The notes under the pieces: generated by a model
Database searches by the model: none
Seen by the model: only the letters and a program-made list of their open reading frames with translations
What the model was told of the DNA's origin: nothing
Shown: piece by piece, positions 1 to 13,964 of the stretch
Layout of the letters: the number at the start of each line of letters is the position of its first letter
Position numbering within the stretch: the stretch's first letter is position 1
Source of the DNA: a virus
Lineage: Duplodnaviria > Heunggongvirae > Uroviricota > Caudoviricetes
Reading direction: 5' to 3' (one strand)
DNA length: 42,577 bases
IMG/VR virus record: IMGVR_UViG_3300002026_000032
Span: 80,351 to 122,927 of that record
Made by a program: the position numbers and the translations under genes

Positions 1-280
1 GTGTGAGAGATTTCCTCTTCATCATCCATGTTATTTGTGAAACCATCATATCAAATAAATTCTTAATCGATTTTCTGGTGGTGATGTCATTGGTTGACAT
101 GATCTTTTTATGGATCGTTGGATATTTCTTTTTAATAACAATGAACACCTTTGCCAATTCAGCAACCATATCCAGAAATACTTTATCAGTGCCTTTGAAT
201 AGTGTACTATCCAATAGTAAGGATAGTTCAGCGAATTCTGCGGCACTAAATATTGTTAACTTCGGATCCACCGGTTGCAT
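1..280 (-). CDS. Hypothetical protein, runs off the left edge (3'-truncated)
   Basis: Manual translation from ATG at 280 gives MQPVDPKLTIFSAAEFAELSLLLD... open to base 1. Same strand as all other genes, but the RBS is weak. Confidence 0.35.
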   Translation of the reverse strand, partial: MQPVDPKLTIFSAAEFAELSLLLDSTLFKGTDKVFLDMVAELAKVFIVIKKKYPTIHKKIMSTNDITTRKSIKNLFDMMVSQITWMMKRKSLT

Positions 281-416
281 CCTTAACTGTGGCTAAGGGT
301 TCTATGTAAATCTGATAAATTCCATTATTTTGATGCCAAGGAAGGAGGCGAGCCACACCCGACTTCGCCTTCTTCTTTGTGTTTGGTATACCTAAATTTG
401 GTATAGCATCTGACAT
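246..416 (-). CDS. Small hypothetical protein (56 aa), not in the ORF track
   Basis: ATG overlaps the upstream TAA (TAATG coupling at 414-418). Translation MSDAIPNLGIPNTKKKAKSGVARLLPW...EVNNI*. Confidence 0.4.
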   Translation of the reverse strand: MSDAIPNLGIPNTKKKAKSGVARLLPWHQNNGIYQIYIEPLATVKDATGGSEVNNI

Positions 417-937
417 TATTTTCTCCGGAAGACTATATCTAATGACAATTCATCAAACGAGACTTCTTCATTCGGGCTATTTGGATCAACGAAGTCATAA
501 GCATTTCGAACTTCAACATCTTTGATGATCTCCCGTATGATCAGATTATTGATTGATGGGGCAAATGTAAGCTCAACTTGCTTATCGATATCACCAGTTT
601 CACCAAGGTTTGATCCAACGAAATCGCGATCAGCAATCAGCACAAATTCACTTGGGTGTTTGTTGAATACAAATTCTTTAAACACTTCAGCAAATGATGC
701 GACAACTGATTCAACATGCTCAGGTAGAACGGAAAACCACCCATTCATGTCATTGGTGCCGAATCGACATCTCCATTGGAATCCGTCTTCGGCGCGATTT
801 TCCATGACGAATTTATACCCATGGATTGTGAATCGACGATGAAATTGAGTACTGTCCATCGGATTCATACCTTCCCAATATTCGGTATCATCGTACGTCT
901 GAACCAGACTGTCTAGCAATTTAGTCTTGATACTCAT
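416..937 (-). CDS. Hypothetical protein (173 aa)
   Basis: Intact ORF overlapping both neighbours; no family recognised. Confidence 0.75.
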   Translation of the reverse strand: MSIKTKLLDSLVQTYDDTEYWEGMNPMDSTQFHRRFTIHGYKFVMENRAEDGFQWRCRFGTNDMNGWFSVLPEHVESVVASFAEVFKEFVFNKHPSEFVLIADRDFVGSNLGETGDIDKQVELTFAPSINNLIIREIIKDVEVRNAYDFVDPNSPNEEVSFDELSLDIVFRRK

Positions 938-1500
938 TTATCTTCTCCTACATACAAATTATCTTTATAATCATACATGTTCAGTATGAACTTTTTATCT
1001 TTCCCATATGAATAGAACTCTTTAAGTTCTTCTTCATCGAATTCAATTGGTGCACTCAACCACTCACCATCATCACCATCTTCGTCGATGATACAATATT
1101 TCATAACCGCTTGCATTGGGATGTTGTGAACCTGGGATATCCCATACTCCTCATCGAGATCGATCGCTATAAGTGGATTGTTGGTCCCGATTGATAAGTC
1201 AGACCTTTTTAATCCATCAATACCATCTGAGTTCTTGAATGCGACATACAATGACAGGTATGGTACCATATCAATTGCTTCACTACCATCACCAGTGATA
1301 TTATCACCAAGTTCATCCCGATCATGTTTATATCGATGCTTGATATACTCATATCGCTTCCGTTCTTGTGGGTCAAGTGATTTGATCTTCACCAAATTCT
1401 TTTTACCTGAACTTGTTGTGTGCCAAACACGATGATCCAACCAACTCTTTTCAGCTTCGGTTAAAATATATTTTTCATGATATAACTGTTTGACATTCAC
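934..1500 (-). CDS. Hypothetical protein (188 aa), possible prohead-protease substrate
   Basis: GTG start with GGAG 8 nt upstream; N-terminal ILTE-A motif. Confidence 0.78.
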   Translation of the reverse strand: MNVKQLYHEKYILTEAEKSWLDHRVWHTTSSGKKNLVKIKSLDPQERKRYEYIKHRYKHDRDELGDNITGDGSEAIDMVPYLSLYVAFKNSDGIDGLKRSDLSIGTNNPLIAIDLDEEYGISQVHNIPMQAVMKYCIIDEDGDDGEWLSAPIEFDEEELKEFYSYGKDKKFILNMYDYKDNLYVGEDK

Positions 1501-4354: not shown

Positions 4355-7300
4355 TCATTGACGGTAACATATTATACCGGTATGCATTGTCCCACCAACT
4401 TTAGTGTTAGGAATACTACTTACTATATTTGCCTCAGTTGCAGCTGGTTCATCATCAACTACAGTATAAATAAATGGATCCGTAAATACAGGTTTTAATG
4501 GTGTATATACAAGAAAATCTTTAACTGAATTAGCTCCGATATAAACCGGAATCCTTATACATTTCTGCACACCAGTAATACTTGGTGTATCATCCAATAC
4601 ATCACCAAAATTGATAATTGGAAATGTATATTTATGTTCCATAAATCCATATGATGAGCAACATGATACCAATTCAATACCATTCATAAACTTGACATGA
4701 TTAAAATCAAGATCATTATCATACACTATATAAATCTCCTCAAGAAGATATGATACAATGTTTGATGATGCCAGGGCTTTTGTTATATTCAATACCATTT
4801 CTACAAATGGTTTAGTGAATTTTATAAGAGCCGTCCCAATGGTGTGATATTCAGTTATTGCTGGCCCGGATTGTGGTGTTATCGTGAATTTACCAATTAT
4901 CGAATTGGTGTCATTTGATGTATCTGTATATCCGATCAAGTCAACTTTCATATCATTTACAGATAACACAGATCTATCCCCAATCAAACCAAACACACCA
5001 TAATTATTACCATTTCCACCAGTCACAAAATGTGATATAGCATGTGATGCTATTGCATAACTATGATCAAATCTATTACTAACCGAACCGATATTAATAT
5101 CTTGTCCATCTATCAATGCAATATCAAATCCTTCAGGATTTTTCAAATCAGTGTGTGATGCATTCCCTGGTAGGAGTGTGTTATGGACCAGTATTGATCC
5201 AACACCATTTGAGTTAATCCCACCATAGAGATCATGAACATACACAGCTCTAATCCCCCTACCCGGAGCACCAATCTGTGATCGATATGATGCCGATGGT
5301 ATTAGGTCTGTATCAAGAGTTGTGTATAAGAAATCAAACTCAGTTGTATTTACTGGTAGCGTACTCGGTATCCCTACTGGTTGAGTCGACCATTTATAAG
5401 TTCCGGTTGTGTATGTTGTTTCTCGTCTCGTCTGAGTGTCTTCATTCAGCATATACCCCAAAAATGCAGTATTGGTCTTTTGTGTATATGTCTCATTAAA
5501 TGGTGAATACTCACGACCAATTGATTGTGCAAATGCAGCTGATGGTACTATGGATGTACCAATGGTTAAATATGAGCCTTGTGATGGTTTTCCGGAAAAT
5601 TTCCCAATACCACCAACAACCTCAGAAACAACAACACCAAGTCTGGAATACCCATAAATACTTTTTGTGTGTAATTGAGTCCATGGATTCACAGAATTCC
5701 CTAAATTCTTTGCACTAGTATACCCCGTGTAATCAAATCCACTATCTTCAACAGAACCATCACCATTCAATATATTAATCGCATTAAGTTCTGTTGATGT
5801 CCCCGGTATTAAATCACCAAACATATAAATTGGTGTTGACACCCCAGAAGTATTCTTTGAAAATAAAGCATGAACAAATGCCGCTTTAATTGGCTGAGTG
5901 CCTGTACCGAATTGTATACCAACCTGTTTGTAATCATCAGTTGATCTTTGTCGGCTGACTTGGGAATCAACATACTTAATTACATTTTGAAATCCTTCTA
6001 ATTTTTCAACAACCAAGTTGCTGATCCAACTTGAGTTTGTGTATTGGAAATCAGAATTTAATGTACCAACATATATCGATCTGATTTTGGCGACCTGTGT
6101 TCCAATATCATATTGTTCATTTGTTGATGGGGTTAATGATGCAGACAGCATAACATCACCATTGGGGTTCCCATCAAACACATACCCACCCAAATAACCG
6201 GTATTCAATGATTTGGTGTATGATGTTCTAAATCTCTCTCTGCGGGATCCTAAATCGATTGTTGTTGATGGTGCTGTACCTTCATCGACACCAGCAGCCG
6301 TACCAATTTGATTAAATGTCAGAGGAATTATACTTTTGTTGAAAACGAACCGCCCTGCTATATCTGGGTCACAGAAGAACTCATAATCATTTGCTGCGTT
6401 TATTGTCTGCCAATACTTAATCACATCATTTGGATTGGTATCATCAATTCTCGATGCACACCCGATGATATCAGTTCTGGCCCCATAATCATAACCATAT
6501 TGTTCGGCCACCGAATTTACCAATGTAAACCATTCATCATAATGAGTGTCATCAGATACTCCAGTTAGCCCAACAACTGAGACATGATGCTGTGCTAATG
6601 TAACTCCACCCTCAGGACTTGCATTATCAGTACCAATAAATATCCGCTGATATGCATGCAAAGAATCCATGGATCCATCATCGTTTGCACCGGTTGTGTA
6701 TGACCAAAATGCAAACTCATTCCCATAAAATTTAGCAGTGTTAGTTACACCATCAATGTCATTTGCTTGGAAGTCAATCACAATATCGATGATGATTTCA
6801 TTGTTTGATGCTCCAGTTGATTCGTATTCAATTGGATTGATCATGTAGACCGATCCAACATAGTATACCCGACCGTCATCACTGGTAGCAAACATCGCGA
6901 TTTTGTTGAATTTGAATGATCCTAACTGTTCGACAGCTGATATTGCACAGGTGAATACACCGACCGTTCGGTAATCTGGAGTTGAGTTATCACTGATATT
7001 GATATTTGCAGTTCGGTAATTCACATTACTAAGCAAAACTTGTTCAGCGCTGACATAGACCTTATTTGAATTCGGCTCGAAAATGCTCGATAGTTGTGCT
7101 GCGTATGAAGTATGTGGTGTGATTGTATTGAATGTGGCGCCTGATATTGATGTCAATGGATATGATCCTATGTCGCCGGAATAATCGGTATTTATGACAG
7201 TTGTTGACATGAGCTGAGATAGTTCAGTTGTTGTCTTAAATGAAGCGACCAACGGAAGATCGCCCAATAAATTCACTCTGACATCAGGCCGTTGATATGA

Positions 7301-7675
7301 TTCAGTCATACCAGTTGTTAAAATGTCATTGATGATTACACCATCAGCATCAGTTGATATGCGATATTGCATATTTGGGATTCTGATGATGTACTGCCCG
7401 GCTGGTGCATTCAACGCTGTCTCGGCTTGTATATCCAGCAAATTGTCTATGGAATCCATACCAAGTCTACGACCATTATACTGCCGCTCAAAACCGGTAG
7501 TATTATTATACTTGGTCTCATTACCACCAGTGAATGTTAAATCACGAGCATTCTTATCAATCAGCAAGTCATATATAGGCATGAAGTGTGTAATCTTAAC
7601 CTTCGGACCACTAACTGCGTTATTAAATACTTGTGACGCATTATCTGTTAAATATACATATGACTTGTAACTCAT
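4355..7675 (-). CDS. Tail fibre protein (1106 aa) with a P2 gpH/DUF3751-like baseplate-binding N-terminus
   Basis: N-terminal YVYLTD...KVKITHF and FKFNKIAMFATSDDG...NPIEY resemble collar-fibre N-termini. About seven [LI][IVTL]P...[DNSQ][LIF]G repeats. Directly follows the wedge genes. Confidence 0.72.
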   Translation of the reverse strand: MSYKSYVYLTDNASQVFNNAVSGPKVKITHFMPIYDLLIDKNARDLTFTGGNETKYNNTTGFERQYNGRRLGMDSIDNLLDIQAETALNAPAGQYIIRIPNMQYRISTDADGVIINDILTTGMTESYQRPDVRVNLLGDLPLVASFKTTTELSQLMSTTVINTDYSGDIGSYPLTSISGATFNTITPHTSYAAQLSSIFEPNSNKVYVSAEQVLLSNVNYRTANINISDNSTPDYRTVGVFTCAISAVEQLGSFKFNKIAMFATSDDGRVYYVGSVYMINPIEYESTGASNNEIIIDIVIDFQANDIDGVTNTAKFYGNEFAFWSYTTGANDDGSMDSLHAYQRIFIGTDNASPEGGVTLAQHHVSVVGLTGVSDDTHYDEWFTLVNSVAEQYGYDYGARTDIIGCASRIDDTNPNDVIKYWQTINAANDYEFFCDPDIAGRFVFNKSIIPLTFNQIGTAAGVDEGTAPSTTIDLGSRRERFRTSYTKSLNTGYLGGYVFDGNPNGDVMLSASLTPSTNEQYDIGTQVAKIRSIYVGTLNSDFQYTNSSWISNLVVEKLEGFQNVIKYVDSQVSRQRSTDDYKQVGIQFGTGTQPIKAAFVHALFSKNTSGVSTPIYMFGDLIPGTSTELNAINILNGDGSVEDSGFDYTGYTSAKNLGNSVNPWTQLHTKSIYGYSRLGVVVSEVVGGIGKFSGKPSQGSYLTIGTSIVPSAAFAQSIGREYSPFNETYTQKTNTAFLGYMLNEDTQTRRETTYTTGTYKWSTQPVGIPSTLPVNTTEFDFLYTTLDTDLIPSASYRSQIGAPGRGIRAVYVHDLYGGINSNGVGSILVHNTLLPGNASHTDLKNPEGFDIALIDGQDINIGSVSNRFDHSYAIASHAISHFVTGGNGNNYGVFGLIGDRSVLSVNDMKVDLIGYTDTSNDTNSIIGKFTITPQSGPAITEYHTIGTALIKFTKPFVEMVLNITKALASSNIVSYLLEEIYIVYDNDLDFNHVKFMNGIELVSCCSSYGFMEHKYTFPIINFGDVLDDTPSITGVQKCIRIPVYIGANSVKDFLVYTPLKPVFTDPFIYTVVDDEPAATEANIVSSIPNTKVGGTMHTGIICYRQ

Positions 7676-7696: not shown

Positions 7697-10600
7697 TTAT
7701 GCACGGATTATCTGTCGAATAGCCACGCTGATATTCATATTTATAGCGTTGGATCCTGCCAGATTCTTCTCGTATGATACAGTTACTGCATGTAACACCA
7801 TTGTTATTGGTTTTATCGATTCAATAACTCTAACTGCTTGACTGATTCGCTTATTTATAATGTCATAATCTTCATCTTCCGCAGACCCTTCAGCACTAAC
7901 CTTGATCCCCATATGAGATGTCGGATAATAACCACTACCAATAAGCAATGGAGATAGTGCTGCATCCTCTGTGATGAAATTCTTATGGTCTTTTGTGTAA
8001 TAAGCAACCAACTCACCAACCAACCCATATGAATAGAGAAGTACAACGAATGCTTTGGGTATTGACTTGATCTTATACCAATATGGAAGTGATTTTATAA
8101 CATGACGAATGTTCATCATGATCTCTTCTTTAGATCGTATATCATCAGAATTGATCCCACCATCAGCAAATGTTGCGGCGTAATTGAATCCCATATTTAT
8201 GTTATACCCAAGATCTGATGCAAAAACTGATAAGTATTCATCATCAACTAGATATGGGTCTCTTAGATCTGATAACCGACTGATTTTCTCTATTATCGAA
8301 ATTTTATTAGTTGTTGATGGTTCATACACAAATCGACCCAACATTGAATTTGACAATTCAGTCATATCAATTTCAGACTCAATAATGCCATCATACGATT
8401 CAATCTCAGTTTCACTTGGCTCAACAGGAGTAATTGATATTGTCAGATCACCAGGATTTGTTATGGTTAATGTCTGTGCAGCCTCAATAGTTATTGGAAT
8501 TGCATCACTGGTCACAGAGATCAATGGATCAGTCACGACGCAAGTCATGTCTTTCCCATTGTCAGAGAGTACCATGACTCGACTGTAGTCAGCTGTCGTT
8601 GCCACTTCTACACCATCAAGTTGCCACGAGTATCCTACAGGATCGAGATAAGTCATATCCCCGATCAGATTGAATAGAGCAATAATCGCATCTCCTGGAG
8701 TGTAGACATCTATGACGAAGTACACTGCTTCAGGAATGTATGTCGCGAGTGAAGATTGAATCTCTTCATCGGTGGTCTCATTCCTGAAGGTGAACAGAAC
8801 AGTGCTGGATGACATAATCTCAGCAGTGATGCTATAAGTATCAACGTAGTTGAACGCATAGTTCGTCTCAAGATCAGGCCCGTCACTTCTGCTCACTAAA
8901 CAGCGAGTAGAATTGATTCTCAGAGTCGTCGAATGGTTGTAGATGGAGATCTCTTCGCCAATGAACTGGAATTCCAGACGGTATGATCTCATACCGCCAC
9001 TAGGGACTTGAATCGCTAACCCAGACGCACCACCTCCAAGAGTCTCGATCTGAATTGAGTAGTCTGTTTTTGTCAAGACTGAGTTTTGAGGCGCGAAACT
9101 GATGTCTCCAAAATTAACCGGATCAGGTCTACTAGAAGCATCAGCAGAGAAGACCACAGTGTCACCTTCTACGACGTCTACAGACAAAGGACTGACTATC
9201 ACTGAAAGATCACTCGTTACGGTGATTGGTACTAGGTCGGTAGTGAGAGATCTTCCATCAGTAAAGAACACAATACCATACAAACTCTTCCCGTTATCAC
9301 TGGCAATCAGAGTTCTTGTGTATTGGGGAGTGTATATCGTAGTAACATAATCTCCATCAAGATACCAATCAACACCGCTAAAAGTGCCGACGAAGGATAC
9401 TTCAAACAAGACAGAACCTCCTAGAATCCCGTCTACCTCTGTAGGTGTTATGGAAACAGACTGGATCTCTTGGACATTGACTGGAATCTCTTTTGTCCCT
9501 ACTATTTGATAGCCAATTGACACCATCTTCGTTGGAAAGTCAAACATCGTTCTCAGAAGACCAACACTTATCGTGGCAATTTCCTGATTGAATTGTGAAT
9601 CCACTCTCAAGTAGAGTTGACCCATCCACATCGGTACCGTATCAGTGGCAATTGGATTGGACAGATTGAATCCGTCTCCTGCATTAGTCAGATAGTATTC
9701 CAGACTACTAGTACCCGGTGATGGGAATACCACCAGAGCGTATGTATTGTTGGGAGCAATCACTCCGGTGTACATGTGAGTATACGACTGTTCATTCACG
9801 AAATAGGTAGCGATCATGTTACCATTCCAGAACTCAAACCGCACTCGACCCGGGACTGTAATACTGAAAAGAGCATTATTGTGGGTCGTAGAGATGGCAA
9901 ATCTACATTGCTTGTACGCGTCCACCTCAGCAGCCATGGTGATGTTATTGGTCATGACAATGTCATTAGCTGTAACTGTTACGTTGGAGAGATTACTGTC
10001 GTAATAGTCCCAATTAAGATCAGAGAAGTCGGTAGTCTCATAGTATGGCATATTTTTGACTGCATTGGCCGCCATAGTTCCGTAATCGTCAGGAATCATC
10101 ACGCGAGAATACGGGTTGTCAGGAGAGACATTGTTTCCGTTAAGATTCCACCACCAATAGTCTTCGACCACCGGAACGATTTTACCGTATGTCGTGACAT
10201 TAACGCCATCACCAAACCCGATGGTAGTCACATACGACCGGAAGACTTCCTTGTTGTCGTTCATGTAGAGTTGATTGAACCCACCCGCTGAGTAGTAGTT
10301 GATCTCGTTCGCATCGACAGTAGTTGCAACAACCCAGTGATCGAAGTCATTAGAGTACAACAGACTACCACCACTGTCCGCGTAGAACGTGTCATCCACC
10401 ATCTTGAATACTCTGACACTAGATGAGGTAACCGTGTAGATATCCGGTTCGAAGGTCAGTCCACTATCTAGAGAACGATATACTACCGTGTTCTCGATGT
10501 GGTGAGTAAACTGAAGATAGAACCCTGTAGAGTTGATCCAGATATGTGAATCCCACGAAGCGTAGATAGTCTCCACTTCAGACATCGACCAAGTGAGCAA

Positions 10601-12682
10601 ATTAGTAGAGCGGTACACTTGATTCCCACCGGATACGAAGTATGTACCCTCATGGAACAAGATATCCCCATAAACAGGCATGTCTGTTACCGCAGTGAAC
10701 AATCCTGAATTGTCGGGACACACATAGACACTAACACCGATGTTCATGACGAACCGAGTTCCATCGAAGAAGACTCGAGTACTTGGTGTACCGAATTCGT
10801 TTATAACAACGAATTGTTGTGTTTGAGTCCAAGTCAACCCGAGATCAGACGATACCACCATAGTGATAGTTCTGCTGTACCAGACGCCAGTATTACTATC
10901 ACCCGCATGTATTCCCACCAGAACACCATTACCGTACGCGATATCTCTGATGCTGTAAGTAGTAAAGGTCTCTACAAAATCAAAGTCAATGCCGTTGGTA
11001 GATCGATAGATTCCTACACCGAAATCATCTGAAGCAGAATTACACACCAACCAAACACCGTCGGCAAAGAGGCACTGACCATTAACTCCACCGGCAATTC
11101 CCTCAGGTCTATCCGGTTGAACTTTCCATTCGAACATCCACATTGGATCGATCTCAGCAGAGAACTCAACAGTTGTCCCCTCGTCTACGGTTACAGAAGT
11201 CGGTACTGTTGTGACCGGAGGCATTTCAAAGCGACCCACTAGAACCGGAACTGAATTACTAGCGGCTGAGTCTACATCAGTGGTTACTTGACAATAGATA
11301 GACTTGGTGTTGTCTAAAATCACCCCATCCATGGAAAGAATGTTCGAGTTTGTCCCGATCTGTTTCCCATTCATCATCCATGAATAGGTTGCACCAGTGA
11401 CAGGGGTACAGGTTAATTCGTAGGGAGTTCCCTCGACAATAGTGATCTTGGTTGGTGTAACCGAAACTGAAAGAGCTGATTCGACTGTAATAGTAACCGA
11501 GTCTGTGATTTCCACCCCGTTATTGCTCACCGTGATCTCGTAGGTGTCAGCATCTGTTAGTTCTGCTTCTGCTTTTGAGTACGAGAATGCCCCTGTGGCG
11601 TTGGTTTCTGTGGCTATTTCGGTCAGGTCTTTTTTGATAGATGCGGAATACTGCGGGACTACAACTGTGCTTCTGAAAAAATCCCCATCACTCGTACTGT
11701 CTCCTGTTGTTCCTAAAATTTGTCCCGTTGATGGGATTAGTCCTAAGTGGAAACAAGCAGAAGTTCCCGCGTCCATGACTCCTGTTGTTTGAAAAGTTGC
11801 GCCGTTATCATAGGAAATTTCTGTATTCGACCCTGTTGAGCATAGGATAATATCAGAAATTGCAAAAACAGAGCGAAACGCGTTTCCTATCGTAGGGAGT
11901 TGCCCCCATGTCGAACCGTTGTCTACCGACCTCCATATTTTTGCCGTTGTTGTGCTGGCATACAACACACCACCACCAGCATGATAGATGGAATAGACAT
12001 CTCCAAGCCCTGTCGATTTTGCTGAAGTCCAGTTTGCTCCAAAATCATCGCTATAAAGCAACTGTGTCGATGCGCTCGTTTGGGATGTCCCCACGATTAT
12101 GCGATCGTTTAACCCTATCGCCAATCCATATGTCCAGTCATCGACACTAACCTGTGGGATTGTTTTTTGGGAAAACGAAGACCCTCCGTCTGAGGAGACC
12201 CATACAGCATTGTCGTCTATCGTTGCAACGAGTAGATTTGTCCCGTTTGTTCTCAGCCTAGAGCATTCATTTGATGCGGTAAATTCAACAACAACAAGCA
12301 CCCAGTTGTCACCATTATCTACCGATTTGTAAATTTGCGCTGTGCGAACAAGGGCAAAAATCGCACCATCGTCGAGCTGGCAGAACGAGTATACGACTGC
12401 TGTCGTACCCGGAATAGTATAGAGAGTTTGGAAGGTTGCCCCGTTGTCGTCTGATGACAGGATTTTTGCGTCTGTCGACCCTGTTCCTGTACCAACTAAT
12501 ATCCTACCAGACTGCAAAACTATACCCTCGTGGCACCGTTCGTAAGCCGCGCCAAGTTCTGTTTTCGTCCACGTCGGCAATGGTGATGTACCACCACTCG
12601 CCTGCCACTCGATCAAAAGTGGATCGCCTTCGAGTAGAGTTTGGTCTGCTGGTGTTGCTGTTGCTGTTACTGCTAATGCCAT
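7697..12682 (-). CDS. Giant baseplate/adhesin protein (1661 aa): five Ig-like domains, two Asp-box beta-propellers, two beta-rich inserts and a C-terminal gp7/P2 gpI-like wedge domain
   Basis: Asp-box motifs S-x-D-x-G-x-T-[FW]. Ig motifs P..V.V.EG..V.F, Y.W..[DN]G and DN.K...C.VT. C-terminal LRDPYLVDDEYLSVFASDLGYN...LPYWYKIKS. AGAGG RBS. Confidence 0.82.
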   Translation of the reverse strand: MALAVTATATPADQTLLEGDPLLIEWQASGGTSPLPTWTKTELGAAYERCHEGIVLQSGRILVGTGTGSTDAKILSSDDNGATFQTLYTIPGTTAVVYSFCQLDDGAIFALVRTAQIYKSVDNGDNWVLVVVEFTASNECSRLRTNGTNLLVATIDDNAVWVSSDGGSSFSQKTIPQVSVDDWTYGLAIGLNDRIIVGTSQTSASTQLLYSDDFGANWTSAKSTGLGDVYSIYHAGGGVLYASTTTAKIWRSVDNGSTWGQLPTIGNAFRSVFAISDIILCSTGSNTEISYDNGATFQTTGVMDAGTSACFHLGLIPSTGQILGTTGDSTSDGDFFRSTVVVPQYSASIKKDLTEIATETNATGAFSYSKAEAELTDADTYEITVSNNGVEITDSVTITVESALSVSVTPTKITIVEGTPYELTCTPVTGATYSWMMNGKQIGTNSNILSMDGVILDNTKSIYCQVTTDVDSAASNSVPVLVGRFEMPPVTTVPTSVTVDEGTTVEFSAEIDPMWMFEWKVQPDRPEGIAGGVNGQCLFADGVWLVCNSASDDFGVGIYRSTNGIDFDFVETFTTYSIRDIAYGNGVLVGIHAGDSNTGVWYSRTITMVVSSDLGLTWTQTQQFVVINEFGTPSTRVFFDGTRFVMNIGVSVYVCPDNSGLFTAVTDMPVYGDILFHEGTYFVSGGNQVYRSTNLLTWSMSEVETIYASWDSHIWINSTGFYLQFTHHIENTVVYRSLDSGLTFEPDIYTVTSSSVRVFKMVDDTFYADSGGSLLYSNDFDHWVVATTVDANEINYYSAGGFNQLYMNDNKEVFRSYVTTIGFGDGVNVTTYGKIVPVVEDYWWWNLNGNNVSPDNPYSRVMIPDDYGTMAANAVKNMPYYETTDFSDLNWDYYDSNLSNVTVTANDIVMTNNITMAAEVDAYKQCRFAISTTHNNALFSITVPGRVRFEFWNGNMIATYFVNEQSYTHMYTGVIAPNNTYALVVFPSPGTSSLEYYLTNAGDGFNLSNPIATDTVPMWMGQLYLRVDSQFNQEIATISVGLLRTMFDFPTKMVSIGYQIVGTKEIPVNVQEIQSVSITPTEVDGILGGSVLFEVSFVGTFSGVDWYLDGDYVTTIYTPQYTRTLIASDNGKSLYGIVFFTDGRSLTTDLVPITVTSDLSVIVSPLSVDVVEGDTVVFSADASSRPDPVNFGDISFAPQNSVLTKTDYSIQIETLGGGASGLAIQVPSGGMRSYRLEFQFIGEEISIYNHSTTLRINSTRCLVSRSDGPDLETNYAFNYVDTYSITAEIMSSSTVLFTFRNETTDEEIQSSLATYIPEAVYFVIDVYTPGDAIIALFNLIGDMTYLDPVGYSWQLDGVEVATTADYSRVMVLSDNGKDMTCVVTDPLISVTSDAIPITIEAAQTLTITNPGDLTISITPVEPSETEIESYDGIIESEIDMTELSNSMLGRFVYEPSTTNKISIIEKISRLSDLRDPYLVDDEYLSVFASDLGYNINMGFNYAATFADGGINSDDIRSKEEIMMNIRHVIKSLPYWYKIKSIPKAFVVLLYSYGLVGELVAYYTKDHKNFITEDAALSPLLIGSGYYPTSHMGIKVSAEGSAEDEDYDIINKRISQAVRVIESIKPITMVLHAVTVSYEKNLAGSNAINMNISVAIRQIIRA
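10165..11146 (-). repeat. BNR/Asp-box repeats, propeller 2
   Basis: STNGIDF, SSDLGLTW, STNLLTW, SLDSGLTF, SNDFDHW. Confidence 0.75.
11657..12580 (-). repeat. BNR/Asp-box repeats, propeller 1
   Basis: SDDNGATF, SVDNGDNW, SSDGGSSF, SDDFGANW, SVDNGSTW, SYDNGATF at roughly 42-45 aa spacing. Confidence 0.85.
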
Positions 12683-12719
12683 ATTGTAGACCTCTGGATA
12701 GATTATTCTGATTTAATTT

Positions 12720-13964
12720 TCAATTGGTGATGTAAACCTGTGCTGATCCAGATACTACCATGGATCCATTAGTAACTGTTATTTCATACACACCAGCATC
12801 TGCAACTGTTATCATTGGTTTTGAATACACAAACACACCTGTAGTGTTAATCTGAGTCTCGATAACAACTGAATTATGCCGGATTGTTGCATGATATTCA
12901 AGTTCAGATCCACCACCAACGACCCACTCAATTTCAAGCGGGGGATTAGCCGTCTCACCACCAAGATTTATATCCCATTCAGTTGACTTATCCAGTTCAT
13001 CTATCACCAATTTCATGACACCACTATTGTCATTATACATATTATTCAAAGTATACTGATACGCCTTTATCAAATCATGAACATCGGTGTCGTGATATTG
13101 CTCTGGTAAAAACTGTTCAATGTCAATAATTCGATTCTCTCTAGCCCGGATCATAGCACGAATTTCATTGAAAATTGTGCTGATTGTATTCACAGAATTA
13201 AGTACCAATATATCATCATCCGGTATCAGTAATTTAGCTACAACATCGACTCTATATCGATCACCATCGATGTACTTATATGAATCAGAATTCATGAATT
13301 TGAATGATAGTTTATTTTCTATTGTGATCCCAGAATAAATAATAGAATCATATTTATCACGAATGGCCCATTGGAACTGTTCGGGGATTATATCAATCGT
13401 TCCAAAATTCTGTACAACATTTGCGGTATATGTAACAGTCCCCATATTGATTACTGTATCTAAGTCCGCGCTAAGGACAACTTCAATTTGTGGATTGAAT
13501 TCAACCACAGGTGTACTCATCCGAAGCGAAAGAATGATTGATCTTATGATTATATCTGTAACCAAAGACTCTATGATTATATCTGGGTTTGTTAACAATA
13601 ACTGAACTGTGTCAATTTCCAATTCAAGGAATTGTGCACTGACAATACATGGATCTGAGATGATCGTTACATATTGGTTTGTTATTTCATAATGCCACGA
13701 TGAGTTATTATCATATTTAGTTATGGTAACTTCGTGTGAATATGACTGTGTGAATGGGAGTTCACAAGGAAATGTTTCGCTATGTACTAGAAATCCATTA
13801 CGATACAATCTAAATGTTAATTCACCAGTAACTTGTTTGACTGATATGGGAAATTCAAGTTGAGATCCAACATATGAACTGAGTGTAGCAGGAAACGATG
13901 TTACAGCAAACCCACCCCCAAAAATTCCAATACCAAATGGGTATTGACCTACTGAACCATTCAT
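12720..13964 (-). CDS. Ig-like domain protein (414 aa) carrying a putative N-terminal segment of the gp7/gpI-like wedge
   Basis: Three beta-rich Ig-like segments plus helical IIDIEQFLPEQYHDTDVHDLIKAYQYTLNNMY. AAGGA RBS. Lies directly after the gp6-like gene. Confidence 0.68.
   Translation of the reverse strand: MNGSVGQYPFGIGIFGGGFAVTSFPATLSSYVGSQLEFPISVKQVTGELTFRLYRNGFLVHSETFPCELPFTQSYSHEVTITKYDNNSSWHYEITNQYVTIISDPCIVSAQFLELEIDTVQLLLTNPDIIIESLVTDIIIRSIILSLRMSTPVVEFNPQIEVVLSADLDTVINMGTVTYTANVVQNFGTIDIIPEQFQWAIRDKYDSIIYSGITIENKLSFKFMNSDSYKYIDGDRYRVDVVAKLLIPDDDILVLNSVNTISTIFNEIRAMIRARENRIIDIEQFLPEQYHDTDVHDLIKAYQYTLNNMYNDNSGVMKLVIDELDKSTEWDINLGGETANPPLEIEWVVGGGSELEYHATIRHNSVVIETQINTTGVFVYSKPMITVADAGVYEITVTNGSMVVSGSAQVYITN

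What the first reader, a model, noticed from the sequence alone, without database searches (positions are those of the whole stretch)
8480..12682. Russian-doll adhesin: Ig-like domains with whole domains plugged into their loops
Seen: five Ig-like repeats share P..V.V.EG..V.F / Y.W..[DN]G / YSR....DN.K...C.V / IP[IV][TN][IV]. Two are intact (about 11230-11477 and 9213-9468) and three are interrupted. Ig1 holds a ~308-aa Asp-box propeller (11657-12580). Ig3 holds a ~327-aa propeller (10165-11146) after FSAEIDP, resumes at DYWWWNLNG..YSRVMIPDDYG, then holds a second ~175-aa beta-rich insert (about 9525-10051) before its last strand. Ig5 holds a ~160-aa beta-rich insert (about 8645-9127) after FSADASS and resumes at VGYSWQLDG..YSRVMVLSDNGK. 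Three inserts fall at the equivalent loop after the second strand. Inference: an Ig stalk acts as a reusable socket for swappable receptor- or glycan-binding modules on the baseplate, rather than the usual beads-on-a-string layout.
Basis: partly seen in the sequence, partly recalled or inferred. Interest (0 to 1): 0.82.

Follow-up and report, generated by a model that had tools for sequence, protein, structure and literature searches.

The report
Nested Ig-domain arm on split baseplate protein
A 1661-residue phage baseplate protein carries five Ig-like domains, three of which have whole foreign domains plugged into their loops, and this array itself sits inside, and has split in two, a baseplate wedge gene that is a single 580-residue protein in the closest relative.

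Summary
The gene at window 7697-12682 (minus strand, 1661 aa) has five Ig-like domains.

**Intact domains:** Ig2 and Ig4.

**Interrupted in the B-C loop:**
- Ig1 holds a seven-bladed Asp-box propeller.
- Ig3 holds a roughly 324-aa probable propeller, plus a second roughly 183-aa insert before its last strands.
- Ig5 holds a roughly 162-aa insert.

**Evidence:**
- A profile of 701 foreign intact Ig domains hits complementary half-domains.
- MAFFT alone lays intact Ig domains across the gaps of Ig1 and Ig5.
- In the AlphaFold2 models the halves are confident. A solved single Ig domain superposes on both Ig5 halves at 1.6 Å.
- The same Ig1-type loop is empty in three natural homologues and holds a different insert in another.
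- The second Ig3 insert rests on motif order only.

**New here:**
- The array is itself an insertion. The upstream gene's first 338 residues plus this protein's last 256 form one 580-aa protein in a close relative.
- The block has foreign codon composition (GC3 0.46 against 0.29).
- It brings its own ribosome-binding site and start codon, so the wedge gene is split.

A binding function is inferred, not shown. Nested adhesins are known (RrgA, evolved Dit), so this is a new variant of a known kind. Two earlier notes of this scan on the same stretch proposed the split and the empty socket. Both were tested here and hold.

The parts
12951..13964 (-). Upstream gene P0160, residues 1-338. This is the N-terminal part of the wedge protein.
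   Evidence: It matches P0153 residues 1-336 at 1.9e-130. GC3 is 0.287. The conserved LP-containing motif lies just before the insertion site.
12723..12950 (-). Ig0, the intact Ig1-type domain at the end of P0160 (residues 339-414). This is the 'empty socket'.
   Evidence: The translation shows the B strand followed directly by the C strand. It is 37% identical to P0001 344-400. GC3 is 0.276, like the resident genes.
12683..12722 (-). TGA stop of P0160 and a 37-nt spacer holding AGAGG 8 nt before the ATG of P0001.
   Evidence: Sequence read. The two genes are in different frames. The start region resembles the 5' end of the P0014 gene.
12584..12682 (-). Ig1 N-half (residues 1-33; strands A, A', B).
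   Evidence: Profile match 5-40. pLDDT is 83-98. Intact Ig rows align here and at 343-401.
11657..12583 (-). Insert 1: seven-bladed Asp-box beta-propeller (residues 34-342).
   Evidence: Pfam Sortilin-Vps10 scores 50.4 bits against a cut-off of 33. There are six Asp-boxes about 43 aa apart. VIA gives Z 21-23 over model 33..342. Ycf48 gives TM 0.66-0.72.
11480..11656 (-). Ig1 C-half (residues 343-401; strands C to G).
   Evidence: Profile match 350-403 at 2.3e-8. pLDDT is 91-98. It is 78% identical to P0014.
11234..11479 (-). Ig2, intact (residues 402-483).
   Evidence: Pfam Ig_2 scores 35.3 bits against a cut-off of 27. Full-length profile match.
11135..11233 (-). Ig3 N-part (residues 484-516).
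   Evidence: Profile match 488-521 at 4.2e-7. The Pfam I-set match covers only profile positions 1-34.
10163..11134 (-). Insert 2: roughly 324-aa beta-rich domain, probably a degenerate propeller (residues 517-840).
   Evidence: BLASTP to insert 1 gives E 0.003. It has two Asp-boxes. It has no relatives and did not fold in AlphaFold2.
10079..10162 (-). Ig3 middle part (residues 841-868; strands C to E and the D-D-Y-G turn).
   Evidence: It matches the Ig5 C-half at 1e-3 in both directions. The WNLNG, YSR and DDYG motifs are present.
9530..10078 (-). Insert 3: roughly 183-aa beta-rich domain of unknown fold (residues 869-1051).
   Evidence: It lies between the Ig3 middle piece and the Ig3 closing motif. 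No family match. pLDDT is 50-56 or lower. Only weak leads exist.
9473..9529 (-). Ig3 last strands (residues 1052-1070), ending in IPVNV directly before Ig4.
   Evidence: This is one of only four [IV]P[IV]x[IV] motifs, each closing an Ig domain. No independent sequence match.
9215..9472 (-). Ig4, intact (residues 1071-1156).
   Evidence: Profile match 2.5e-13. pLDDT is 92-98. VIA gives Z 11.8 at rmsd 1.6 Å.
9128..9214 (-). Ig5 N-half (residues 1157-1185).
   Evidence: Profile match 1159-1185. pLDDT is about 96. MAFFT places tandem Ig rows here and at 1341-1400.
8642..9127 (-). Insert 4: roughly 162-aa beta-rich domain of unknown fold (residues 1186-1347).
   Evidence: No relatives and no family match. 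It did not fold. ConA/SPRY-like clusters appear only as weak leads.
8483..8641 (-). Ig5 C-half (residues 1348-1400).
   Evidence: Profile match 7.5e-16. Solved single Ig domains align 80 residues at 1.6 Å over model 675..917, which spans both halves.
8333..8482 (-). Linker back into the wedge protein (residues 1401-1450). The right-hand junction is near residue 1421.
   Evidence: The alignment to P0153 resumes at about residue 1404-1430. GC3 falls to 0.24-0.30 here.
7697..8332 (-). C-terminal wedge domain (residues 1451-1661, plus the stop codon).
   Evidence: It matches P0153 322-580 at 7e-115 and seven further relatives. GC3 is 0.287. Language-model features point to Baseplate_wedge and Tail_P2_I clusters.

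Best explanation
P0001 is the C-terminal polypeptide of a split baseplate wedge protein of an uncultured T4-like myophage. The family is encoded directly after the gp25-like and gp6-like genes. In the closest relative it is one 580-aa chain.

**The insertion.**
- In this phage, a variable site between a conserved N-terminal segment and the conserved C-terminal domain holds six Ig-like domains.
- Ig0 is resident and ends the upstream gene.
- Ig1 to Ig5 form a block of about 1400 residues with foreign codon composition. The block arrived with its own ribosome-binding site and start codon, and so cut the gene in two (inferred).

**The nesting.**
- Within the block, Ig1, Ig3 and Ig5 each carry a whole domain in the B-C loop. 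This loop corresponds to CDR1 and lies at the N-terminal end of the sandwich.
- Ig3 carries a second domain near its E-F or F-G turn.
- The N and C termini of a closed propeller lie side by side, so it can sit in a loop without breaking the host fold.

**Inferred consequences.**
- The result is a short continuous Ig stalk, anchored in each wedge by the C-terminal domain.
- The stalk displays four different globular modules sideways.
- The modules most likely make weak, multivalent contacts with host surface glycans, as other phage Ig arrays and inserted carbohydrate-binding modules do.
- Whether the two polypeptides reassemble was not established.
For: **Nesting**
- Complementary half-domain profile matches.
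- Alignments spanning the junction: 51 of 52 for Ig1 and 550 of 555 for Ig5.
- MAFFT without guidance places intact Ig rows across the gaps.
- AlphaFold2 gives pLDDT above 90 for both halves of Ig1 and Ig5.
- Single solved Ig domains 3bfo_A and 4x9h_A align 80 residues at rmsd 1.6 Å over model 675..917.
- A closed seven-bladed propeller spans exactly residues 33..342.

**Natural controls for Ig1**
- The same loop is empty in P0068 copy 2, P0103 and Ig0.
- It holds a different roughly 200-aa insert in P0068 copy 1.
- Against P0014, the flanks are 63% and 78% identical but the insert only 27%.

**Ig3**
- Motif order: EGTT 501, WNLNG 845, YSR 858, DDYG 865, IPVNV 1066.
- The middle piece matches Ig5 at 1e-3.

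**Split wedge gene**
- P0153 equals P0160 1-338 plus P0001 1405-1661, at 1.9e-130 and 7e-115.
- The relative is syntenic and its gp6-like protein is 70% identical.
- The stop, spacer, AGAGG and ATG are read directly from the sequence.
- The start region is shared at DNA level with P0014.

**Foreign block**
- GC3 is 0.455 in the block against 0.287 on both flanks, with steps at both junctions.

**Variable site**
- Relatives have no insert, a PKD domain, Ig domains, CBM96 or an NHL propeller.

**Rarity**
- Only one other split Ig was found among about 1270 Ig domains in 149 related proteins.
Against: - AlphaFold2 gave no usable model for Ig3 or for inserts 2, 3 and 4 (pLDDT under 50). The double insertion in Ig3 therefore has no structural support.
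- The last Ig3 piece has no independent sequence match.
- MAFFT does not place intact Ig rows on the later Ig3 pieces.
- The confident Ig halves in both models depend on alignments in which intact Ig domains already bridge the gap. They are not fully independent of the sequence evidence.
- No binding activity, ligand or host is known.
- The wedge family has no Pfam or PDB relative by sequence.
Confidence: 0.75

Rival explanations
1. The layout is linear. The short Ig-like pieces flanking the inserts are decayed remnants or linkers that do not pair, so the protein is beads on a string with broken beads.
For: The Ig3 middle piece is not significant against the foreign Ig profile (E 0.27). The last Ig3 piece has no match. 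AlphaFold2 did not fold Ig3.
Against: - The profile coordinates of the halves are complementary for all three domains.
- The flanks are far better conserved than the insert in P0014.
- Uninterrupted copies of the same domain exist.
- One solved Ig domain superposes on both Ig5 halves at 1.6 Å.
- The closing motif occurs only at Ig ends.
Confidence: 0.05
2. The high-GC3 block is a chimeric join made by metagenome assembly and is not part of this phage's genome.
For: Composition steps sharply at both ends of the block. Only one record carries the protein. Read support could not be checked.
Against: - Both flanks are the two parts of one wedge gene, in order and orientation.
- The right junction is in frame inside a single ORF.
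- Ig0 on the resident side is the same domain type as the block's first domain.
- Other relatives carry Ig or PKD arrays at the same site.
Confidence: 0.05
3. The inserted propellers are enzymes (sialidase or other glycoside-hydrolase type depolymerases) rather than binding modules.
For: Asp-box propellers include sialidases. Foldseek lists the Micromonospora viridifaciens sialidase among the matches. Depolymerases are common on phage tails (general knowledge).
Against: - No RIP motif occurs anywhere in the protein.
- The best family is Sortilin-Vps10.
- The best whole-domain structural matches are non-enzymatic seven-bladed propellers such as Ycf48 and YncE.
- Sialidases are six-bladed (established knowledge).
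Confidence: 0.12
4. The array is structural or environmental decoration rather than host recognition. It could act as a Hoc-like sensor, mucus adherence or baseplate bracing, with the true receptor-binding protein encoded elsewhere, for example the 1106-aa downstream gene.
For: Phage Ig arrays such as Hoc are dispensable decorations (PMC10385173). A conserved 1106-1146-aa gene follows the wedge gene here and in relatives. Close relatives do without the array.
Against: Relatives place recognised carbohydrate-binding or propeller modules (CBM96, NHL) on the same protein. The baseplate periphery is where host contact occurs. Neither point excludes this rival.
Confidence: 0.2

Closest known systems
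Evolved Dit proteins of siphophages (carbohydrate-binding modules inserted in loops of the Dit galectin domain; PMC7291167)
   Same: It is a phage baseplate protein. One or two whole binding modules are inserted in loops of a beta-sandwich host domain. The inserts vary between related phages.
   Different: Here the host domain is an I-set-like Ig in an array, not the galectin domain of Dit. The carrier is a myophage wedge protein. Three host domains in one chain are filled. The inserts include propellers. The array is itself an insert and the gene is split.
Streptococcus pneumoniae pilus adhesin RrgA (D3 inserted into D2, and D2/D3 inserted into D1; PMC5333627)
   Same: It has a Russian-doll topology in which beta-sandwich domains are formed from sequence on both sides of an inserted domain. 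The separated halves of D2 reassociate, a precedent for a split host domain.
   Different: RrgA is a bacterial sortase-dependent pilin with isopeptide bonds. P0001 has no LPxTG motif, is unrelated in sequence, and its nesting is parallel (three sockets) as well as serial.
Integrin beta subunit (beta-I domain inserted in the Ig-like hybrid domain, itself inserted in the PSI domain; recalled from established structural knowledge)
   Same: An Ig-like sandwich hosts a large ligand-binding domain in a loop, with serial nesting.
   Different: It is a eukaryotic receptor with a different insert fold. No homology was tested or expected.
Hoc and other phage Ig-like decorations (conserved anchor domain plus a string of variable Ig-like domains; PMC10385173)
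   Same: It has a conserved C-terminal anchor and variable I-set-like Ig domains. The RB49 Hoc and phage Moo19 decoration structures are among the structural matches to Ig4 and Ig5.
   Different: Hoc is a plain linear string on the capsid. Here the string is on the baseplate and three of its beads are filled.
P2 gpI / T4 gp7 class of wedge proteins (Pfam Tail_P2_I)
   Same: The gene lies right after the gp25-like and gp6/gpJ-like genes. Language-model features of the C-terminal domain point to Tail_P2_I and Baseplate_wedge clusters.
   Different: There is no profile match for this protein or genome. One relative scores E 0.0017, below the cut-off. Membership is not established.

Membership tests
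Ig-like domain (Pfam Ig_2 / I-set) | Profile match above the curated cut-off | tested here: met
   Ig2 scores 35.3 bits for PF13895 against a cut-off of 27. Ig4 and the half-domains match a profile of 701 foreign Ig domains.
Ig-like domain (Pfam Ig_2 / I-set) | Beta-sandwich fold superposable on solved Ig domains | tested here: met
   This rests on AlphaFold2 models only. Ig4 gives Z 11.8 at rmsd 1.6 Å. The two Ig5 halves together give Z 11.4, with 80 residues at 1.6 Å on 3bfo_A.
Ig-like domain (Pfam Ig_2 / I-set) | Domain made from one continuous stretch of chain | tested here: not met
   Ig1, Ig3 and Ig5 are interrupted by 309, 324 + 183 and 162 residues. This is the variant feature, not a reason to reject the fold.
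BNR/Asp-box beta-propeller (Pfam Sortilin-Vps10) | Profile match above the cut-off, and repeated S-x-D-x-G-x-x-W/F boxes | tested here: met
   Insert 1 scores 50.4 bits against a cut-off of 33 and has six boxes about 43 aa apart.
BNR/Asp-box beta-propeller (Pfam Sortilin-Vps10) | Closed seven-bladed toroid | tested here: met
   Insert 1 model: Z 21-23, about 280 residues at rmsd 3.0 Å on seven-bladed propellers, and TM 0.66-0.72 on Ycf48. The propeller's pLDDT is only 45-77.
BNR/Asp-box beta-propeller (Pfam Sortilin-Vps10) | The same features in insert 2 (residues 517-840) | tested here: inconclusive
   It has two boxes only. BNR scores E 0.81. BLASTP to insert 1 gives E 0.003. The blade profile gives E 0.014. 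There is no model.
Sialidase (GH33) | RIP motif of the catalytic arginine triad | tested here: not met
   No RIP occurs anywhere in the 1661 residues. The other catalytic residues could not be assessed.
P2 gpI / gp7-class wedge protein (Pfam Tail_P2_I, Baseplate_wedge) | Gene directly downstream of the gp25-like and gp6/gpJ-like genes | tested here: met
   PHROG matches of the neighbouring genes. The order is the same in L008 and L009.
P2 gpI / gp7-class wedge protein (Pfam Tail_P2_I, Baseplate_wedge) | Profile match to PF09684 or PF23786 | tested here: not met
   No match in the protein or in a six-frame search of the genome. One relative scores E 0.0017, below the cut-off. It is therefore described by position only, not filed as a member.
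P2 gpI / gp7-class wedge protein (Pfam Tail_P2_I, Baseplate_wedge) | Fold and contact with the gp6-like dimer | not tested
There is no PDB relative by sequence.
Evolved Dit | The host protein is the distal tail protein, with a galectin domain carrying the insert | tested here: not met
   The carrier follows gp6-like in a contractile-tail baseplate cluster, and the host domains are Ig-like. It works like an evolved Dit but is not one.
Sortase-dependent nested pilus adhesin (RrgA type) | C-terminal LPxTG sorting signal | tested here: not met
   No LPx[TSA]G occurs in the protein.

The most novel reading that the evidence does not exclude
This is a three-level nest with a genetic break. A baseplate wedge protein contains an Ig array, and the array contains propellers and beta modules. 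The array was captured from another phage together with its own translation start. The wedge protein is therefore now made as two polypeptides that must reassemble in the baseplate. The B-C loop of phage I-set-like Ig domains would then be a general natural display socket that accepts domains of 160-520 residues.
Probability: 0.45. Interest if true: 0.72.

Novelty: new variant of a known kind. Interest (0 to 1): 0.62.

Why it matters
- Phage Ig-like domains are usually described as passive beads on a string. Here they serve as hosts for whole domains, three times in one chain and twice in one domain. This gives a compact way to mount several different binding modules on one short stalk.
- Natural filled, empty and differently filled versions of the same loop give a ready comparative system for studying how host range modules are exchanged.
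- They also point to a loop that tolerates very large insertions, which could be useful for displaying domains on phage particles.
- The split of an essential wedge gene by a captured block with its own start codon shows how modular exchange can change gene structure as well as sequence.

Tried and rejected
**Searches for relatives**
- A search of 50,697 phage records with the protein and with 8.7 kb of DNA found no match.
- The word-indexed search over the whole protein found only itself.
- An IMG/VR scan with the protein found no relative.
- The exhaustive HMMER search of residues 340-1440 hit only through the Ig repeats. Inserts 2, 3 and 4 have no relatives.
- The two beta-rich inserts have no Pfam or PHROG match.
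- ESM Atlas features gave only weak leads, with shared-feature counts far below the trustworthy range: Sialidase-like_CBM, DUF6645 and SO2946-like for insert 3, and SPRY or ConA-like for insert 4.

**Alignments and models**
- MAFFT could not place intact Ig rows on the later Ig3 pieces in any mode tried.
- Adding propeller rows to the Ig1 alignment destroyed it.
- As a result, Ig3 and inserts 2-4 were folded essentially without an alignment and came out under pLDDT 50.

**Split-gene pairing**
- Complex prediction on the two wedge parts (P0160 1-340 with P0001 1400-1661) gave no answer, with a score of 0.00. Both chains were poorly folded. This counts neither for nor against binding.

**Wedge family identity**
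- The Tail_P2_I and Baseplate_wedge profiles gave no match in the genome.
- PDB sequence searches with the wedge family found nothing meaningful.

**Tools unavailable**
- The protein's own contigs were withheld.

**Readings rejected**
- Read-through of the P0160 stop into P0001 is rejected because the two genes are in different frames.
Full report
**Setting**

The window is the last 42.6 kb of a 122.9-kb IMG/VR virus record estimated at 55% complete. On the minus strand the genes run in this order:
- a gpV-like hub gene;
- a gp25-like gene (120 aa);
- a gp6-like gene (811 aa);
- a 414-aa gene (P0160);
- the 1661-aa gene of the finding (P0001, window 7697-12682);
- an 1106-aa gene;
- T4 gp19-like tube and regA-like genes.

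This is the baseplate cluster of a contractile-tailed phage. Neither the protein nor the DNA has a match among 50,697 deposited phage records.

Ig2 (residues 402-483) passes the Pfam Ig_2 cut-off. A profile built only from Ig2 and Ig4 finds N-terminal pieces at 490-510 and 1158-1179 and a C-terminal piece at 1349-1399, E 8e-11.

A stronger profile, built from 701 intact Ig domains of other proteins, finds complementary pieces in all three interrupted domains:

| Domain | Residues | Profile positions |
|---|---|---|
| Ig1 | 5-40 | 15-50 |
| Ig1 | 350-403 | 49-99 |
| Ig3 | 488-521 | 15-50 |
| Ig3 | 844-866 | 47-71 |
| Ig5 | 1159-1185 | 15-41 |
| Ig5 | 1348-1407 | 43-104 |

- When the pieces are joined in silico, 51 of 52 significant hits for Ig1 and 550 of 555 for Ig5 run across the junction into both halves.
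- MAFFT in automatic mode, with no guidance, lays intact single Ig domains over residues 1-33 and 343-401. It lays tandem Ig pairs over Ig4, 1159-1188 and 1341-1400, leaving the inserts as gaps.

**Structure models**

Residues 1-401:
- pLDDT is 83-98 for residues 1-30 and 91-98 for 341-401.
- Between them lies a moderately confident all-beta domain.
- That domain aligns over residues 33..342 with seven-bladed propellers: Z 21-23, about 280 residues, rmsd about 3 Å. It matches Ycf48 with TM 0.66-0.72 by target.
- This agrees with the Pfam Sortilin-Vps10 match (50.4 bits against a cut-off of 33) and with six Asp-boxes about 43 residues apart.

Residues 484-1405:
- Only Ig4 and the two halves of Ig5 are confident (pLDDT 92-98).
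- Solved single Ig domains of 85 residues align 80 residues at 1.6 Å over model 675..917, that is protein 1158..1400. The two halves therefore form one sandwich in the model.

These models depend on alignments in which intact Ig domains already bridge the gaps. They confirm consistency and are not fully independent proof.

**Natural controls**

P0014 is a 1075-aa protein at the tail tip of a siphophage-like contig.
- It starts with the same residues as P0001 and has the same split domain.
- Its flanks are 63% and 78% identical to P0001, but the roughly 300-aa insert is only 27% identical.

P0068 is a 996-aa protein in the same position in another contig. It has two copies of this domain.
- Copy 2 is uninterrupted.
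- Copy 1 has about 200 unrelated residues at exactly the same point, between the A-S-G-G end of strand B and the Y-S/T-A start of strand C.

P0103 and the last 76 residues of the upstream gene P0160 are also uninterrupted copies. The same loop therefore exists empty, filled with a propeller, and filled with something else.

**Ig3**

The first interruption is supported by three results:
- the N-terminal profile match;
- a Pfam I-set match that covers only profile positions 1-34;
- a middle piece (844-871) that matches the Ig5 C-half at 1e-3 in both directions.

The second interruption rests on order and motifs.
- The closing motif [IV]P[IV]x[IV] occurs only four times in the protein, each time at the end of an Ig domain and directly before the next. 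One of them is at 1066, just before Ig4 (P about 5e-4 by shuffling).
- About 183 residues separate it from the D-D-Y-G turn at 865.
- Whether strand F lies before or after the insert is open.
- AlphaFold2 did not fold Ig3 or inserts 2-4, which have no relatives.

Insert 2 is probably a degenerate propeller. BLASTP to insert 1 gives E 0.003 and it has two Asp-boxes. This is not shown.

**The array is itself an insert, and the gene is split**

This point follows leads in two earlier notes of this scan on the same stretch, tested here.
- The last 256 residues of P0001 are a conserved domain found at the C-terminus of shorter proteins of 315-830 aa.
- The closest of these, P0153 (580 aa), matches P0160 residues 1-338 over its first 336 residues (1.9e-130). 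It matches P0001 residues 1405-1661 over its last 259 (7e-115).
- P0153 lies after gpV-like, gp25-like and gp6-like genes in a contig whose gp6-like protein is 70% identical to ours.
- The junctions fall after about residue 338 of P0160 and near residue 1421 of P0001.
- P0160 ends with Ig0 and a TGA. After it come 37 nt, which include AGAGG 8 nt before the ATG of P0001 in another frame.
- The first codons and the upstream purine run are nearly the same as at the start of the P0014 gene.

Composition supports a foreign origin for the block:

| Segment | GC3 |
|---|---|
| P0001 residues 1-1400 | 0.455 |
| P0160 N-part | 0.287 |
| P0001 tail (residues 1401-1661) | 0.287 |
| Ig0 | 0.276 |

- GC3 steps at the start codon and again at about residue 1390.
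- The simplest reading is that a foreign block beginning at a gene start was recombined into a resident Ig-bearing variable site, cutting the wedge gene in two. This step is inferred.
- Other family members have different modules at or around the same site: nothing, a PKD domain, plain Ig domains, CBM96, or a C-terminal NHL propeller.

**Identity of the carrier**

By position the family corresponds to P2 gpI or T4 gp7.
- Language-model features of the C-terminal domain point to Tail_P2_I and Baseplate_wedge clusters.
- One relative scores E 0.0017 against Tail_P2_I.
- There is no profile match for this protein or this genome, and no PDB relative by sequence.

I therefore describe it by position only.

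**How it most likely works**

Shown:
- the topology of Ig1 and Ig5;
- the propeller in Ig1;
- the split;
- the foreign composition of the block;
- the variability of the site.

Inferred:
- The C-terminal domain anchors the chain in each wedge.
- The Ig domains form a continuous stalk.
- The modules project sideways from B-C loops, which lie at the N-terminal end of an Ig sandwich (general structural knowledge).
- The modules bind host surface glycans weakly and multivalently.

The binding role rests on analogy:
- evolved Dit proteins, in which carbohydrate-binding modules sit in loops of a galectin domain (PMC7291167);
- Hoc-like Ig strings (PMC10385173);
- the CBM96 and NHL modules found on relatives.

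A sialidase-like enzyme is unlikely. The protein has no RIP motif, and the model has seven blades rather than six.

**Novelty**

Nested beta-sandwich adhesins are known. In RrgA, D3 is inserted in D2 and D2/D3 in D1, and the separated halves of D2 reassociate (PMC5333627). The integrin beta hybrid domain is another example. Inserted binding modules in phage baseplate proteins are also known.

What is unusual here:
- the hosts are phage I-set-like Ig domains;
- three of five are filled;
- one is filled twice;
- the array sits inside a wedge gene and has split it.

Among about 1270 Ig domains in 149 related proteins, only one other split domain was found. It carries a 519-aa insert after strand C, in P0008. 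I rate this a new variant of a known kind.

**Limits**

- There is no host and no experimental data.
- The folds of three of the four inserts are unknown.
- A complex prediction for the two wedge parts gave no answer.

Noticed in passing
window 7697-13964: GC3 inside the foreign block is uneven. It is 0.50-0.62 over the end of insert 2 and over insert 3, 0.50-0.54 over insert 4, but 0.34-0.38 over Ig4. This may mean the block is itself a mosaic assembled in steps.
   Followed up: partly
L003 10001-13228 and L005 10001-12991: The Ig1-with-insert module also forms the N-terminus of 996-1075-aa proteins encoded right after the tape-measure and a 214-aa gene in siphophage-like contigs. The module has therefore moved between contractile and non-contractile tail systems.
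   Followed up: partly
L015 6221-8704 and L012 3686-7693: Relatives of the wedge family carry other add-ons. One has a C-terminal NHL-repeat propeller (827 aa). Another has a CBM96 module in a 1335-aa version.
   Followed up: partly
L009 2400-3632: An IS605-type TnpB gene (OrfB_IS605, Cas12f1-like) sits between the gp25-like gene and the next baseplate gene of a related phage contig.
   Followed up: no
P0008 residues 608-1214 (protein): This is the only other split Ig domain found. Its N-half runs through strand C, then come 519 residues, then the C-half. The insertion is in the C-C' loop rather than the B-C loop. The insert has no Pfam match.
   Followed up: partly
window 4355-7675: The 1106-aa gene downstream has no Pfam or PHROG match, but a gene of the same size (1146 aa) follows the wedge gene in L009. 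It is a candidate fibre or further baseplate protein.
   Followed up: no
window 12951-13964 (P0160 residues about 25-110): By eye, the N-terminal part of P0160 and of P0153 also reads like an Ig1-type sandwich (R-N-G after a hydrophobic strand, Y-E-I-T-N near the end). The resident protein may already begin with such a domain. This was not tested.
   Followed up: no
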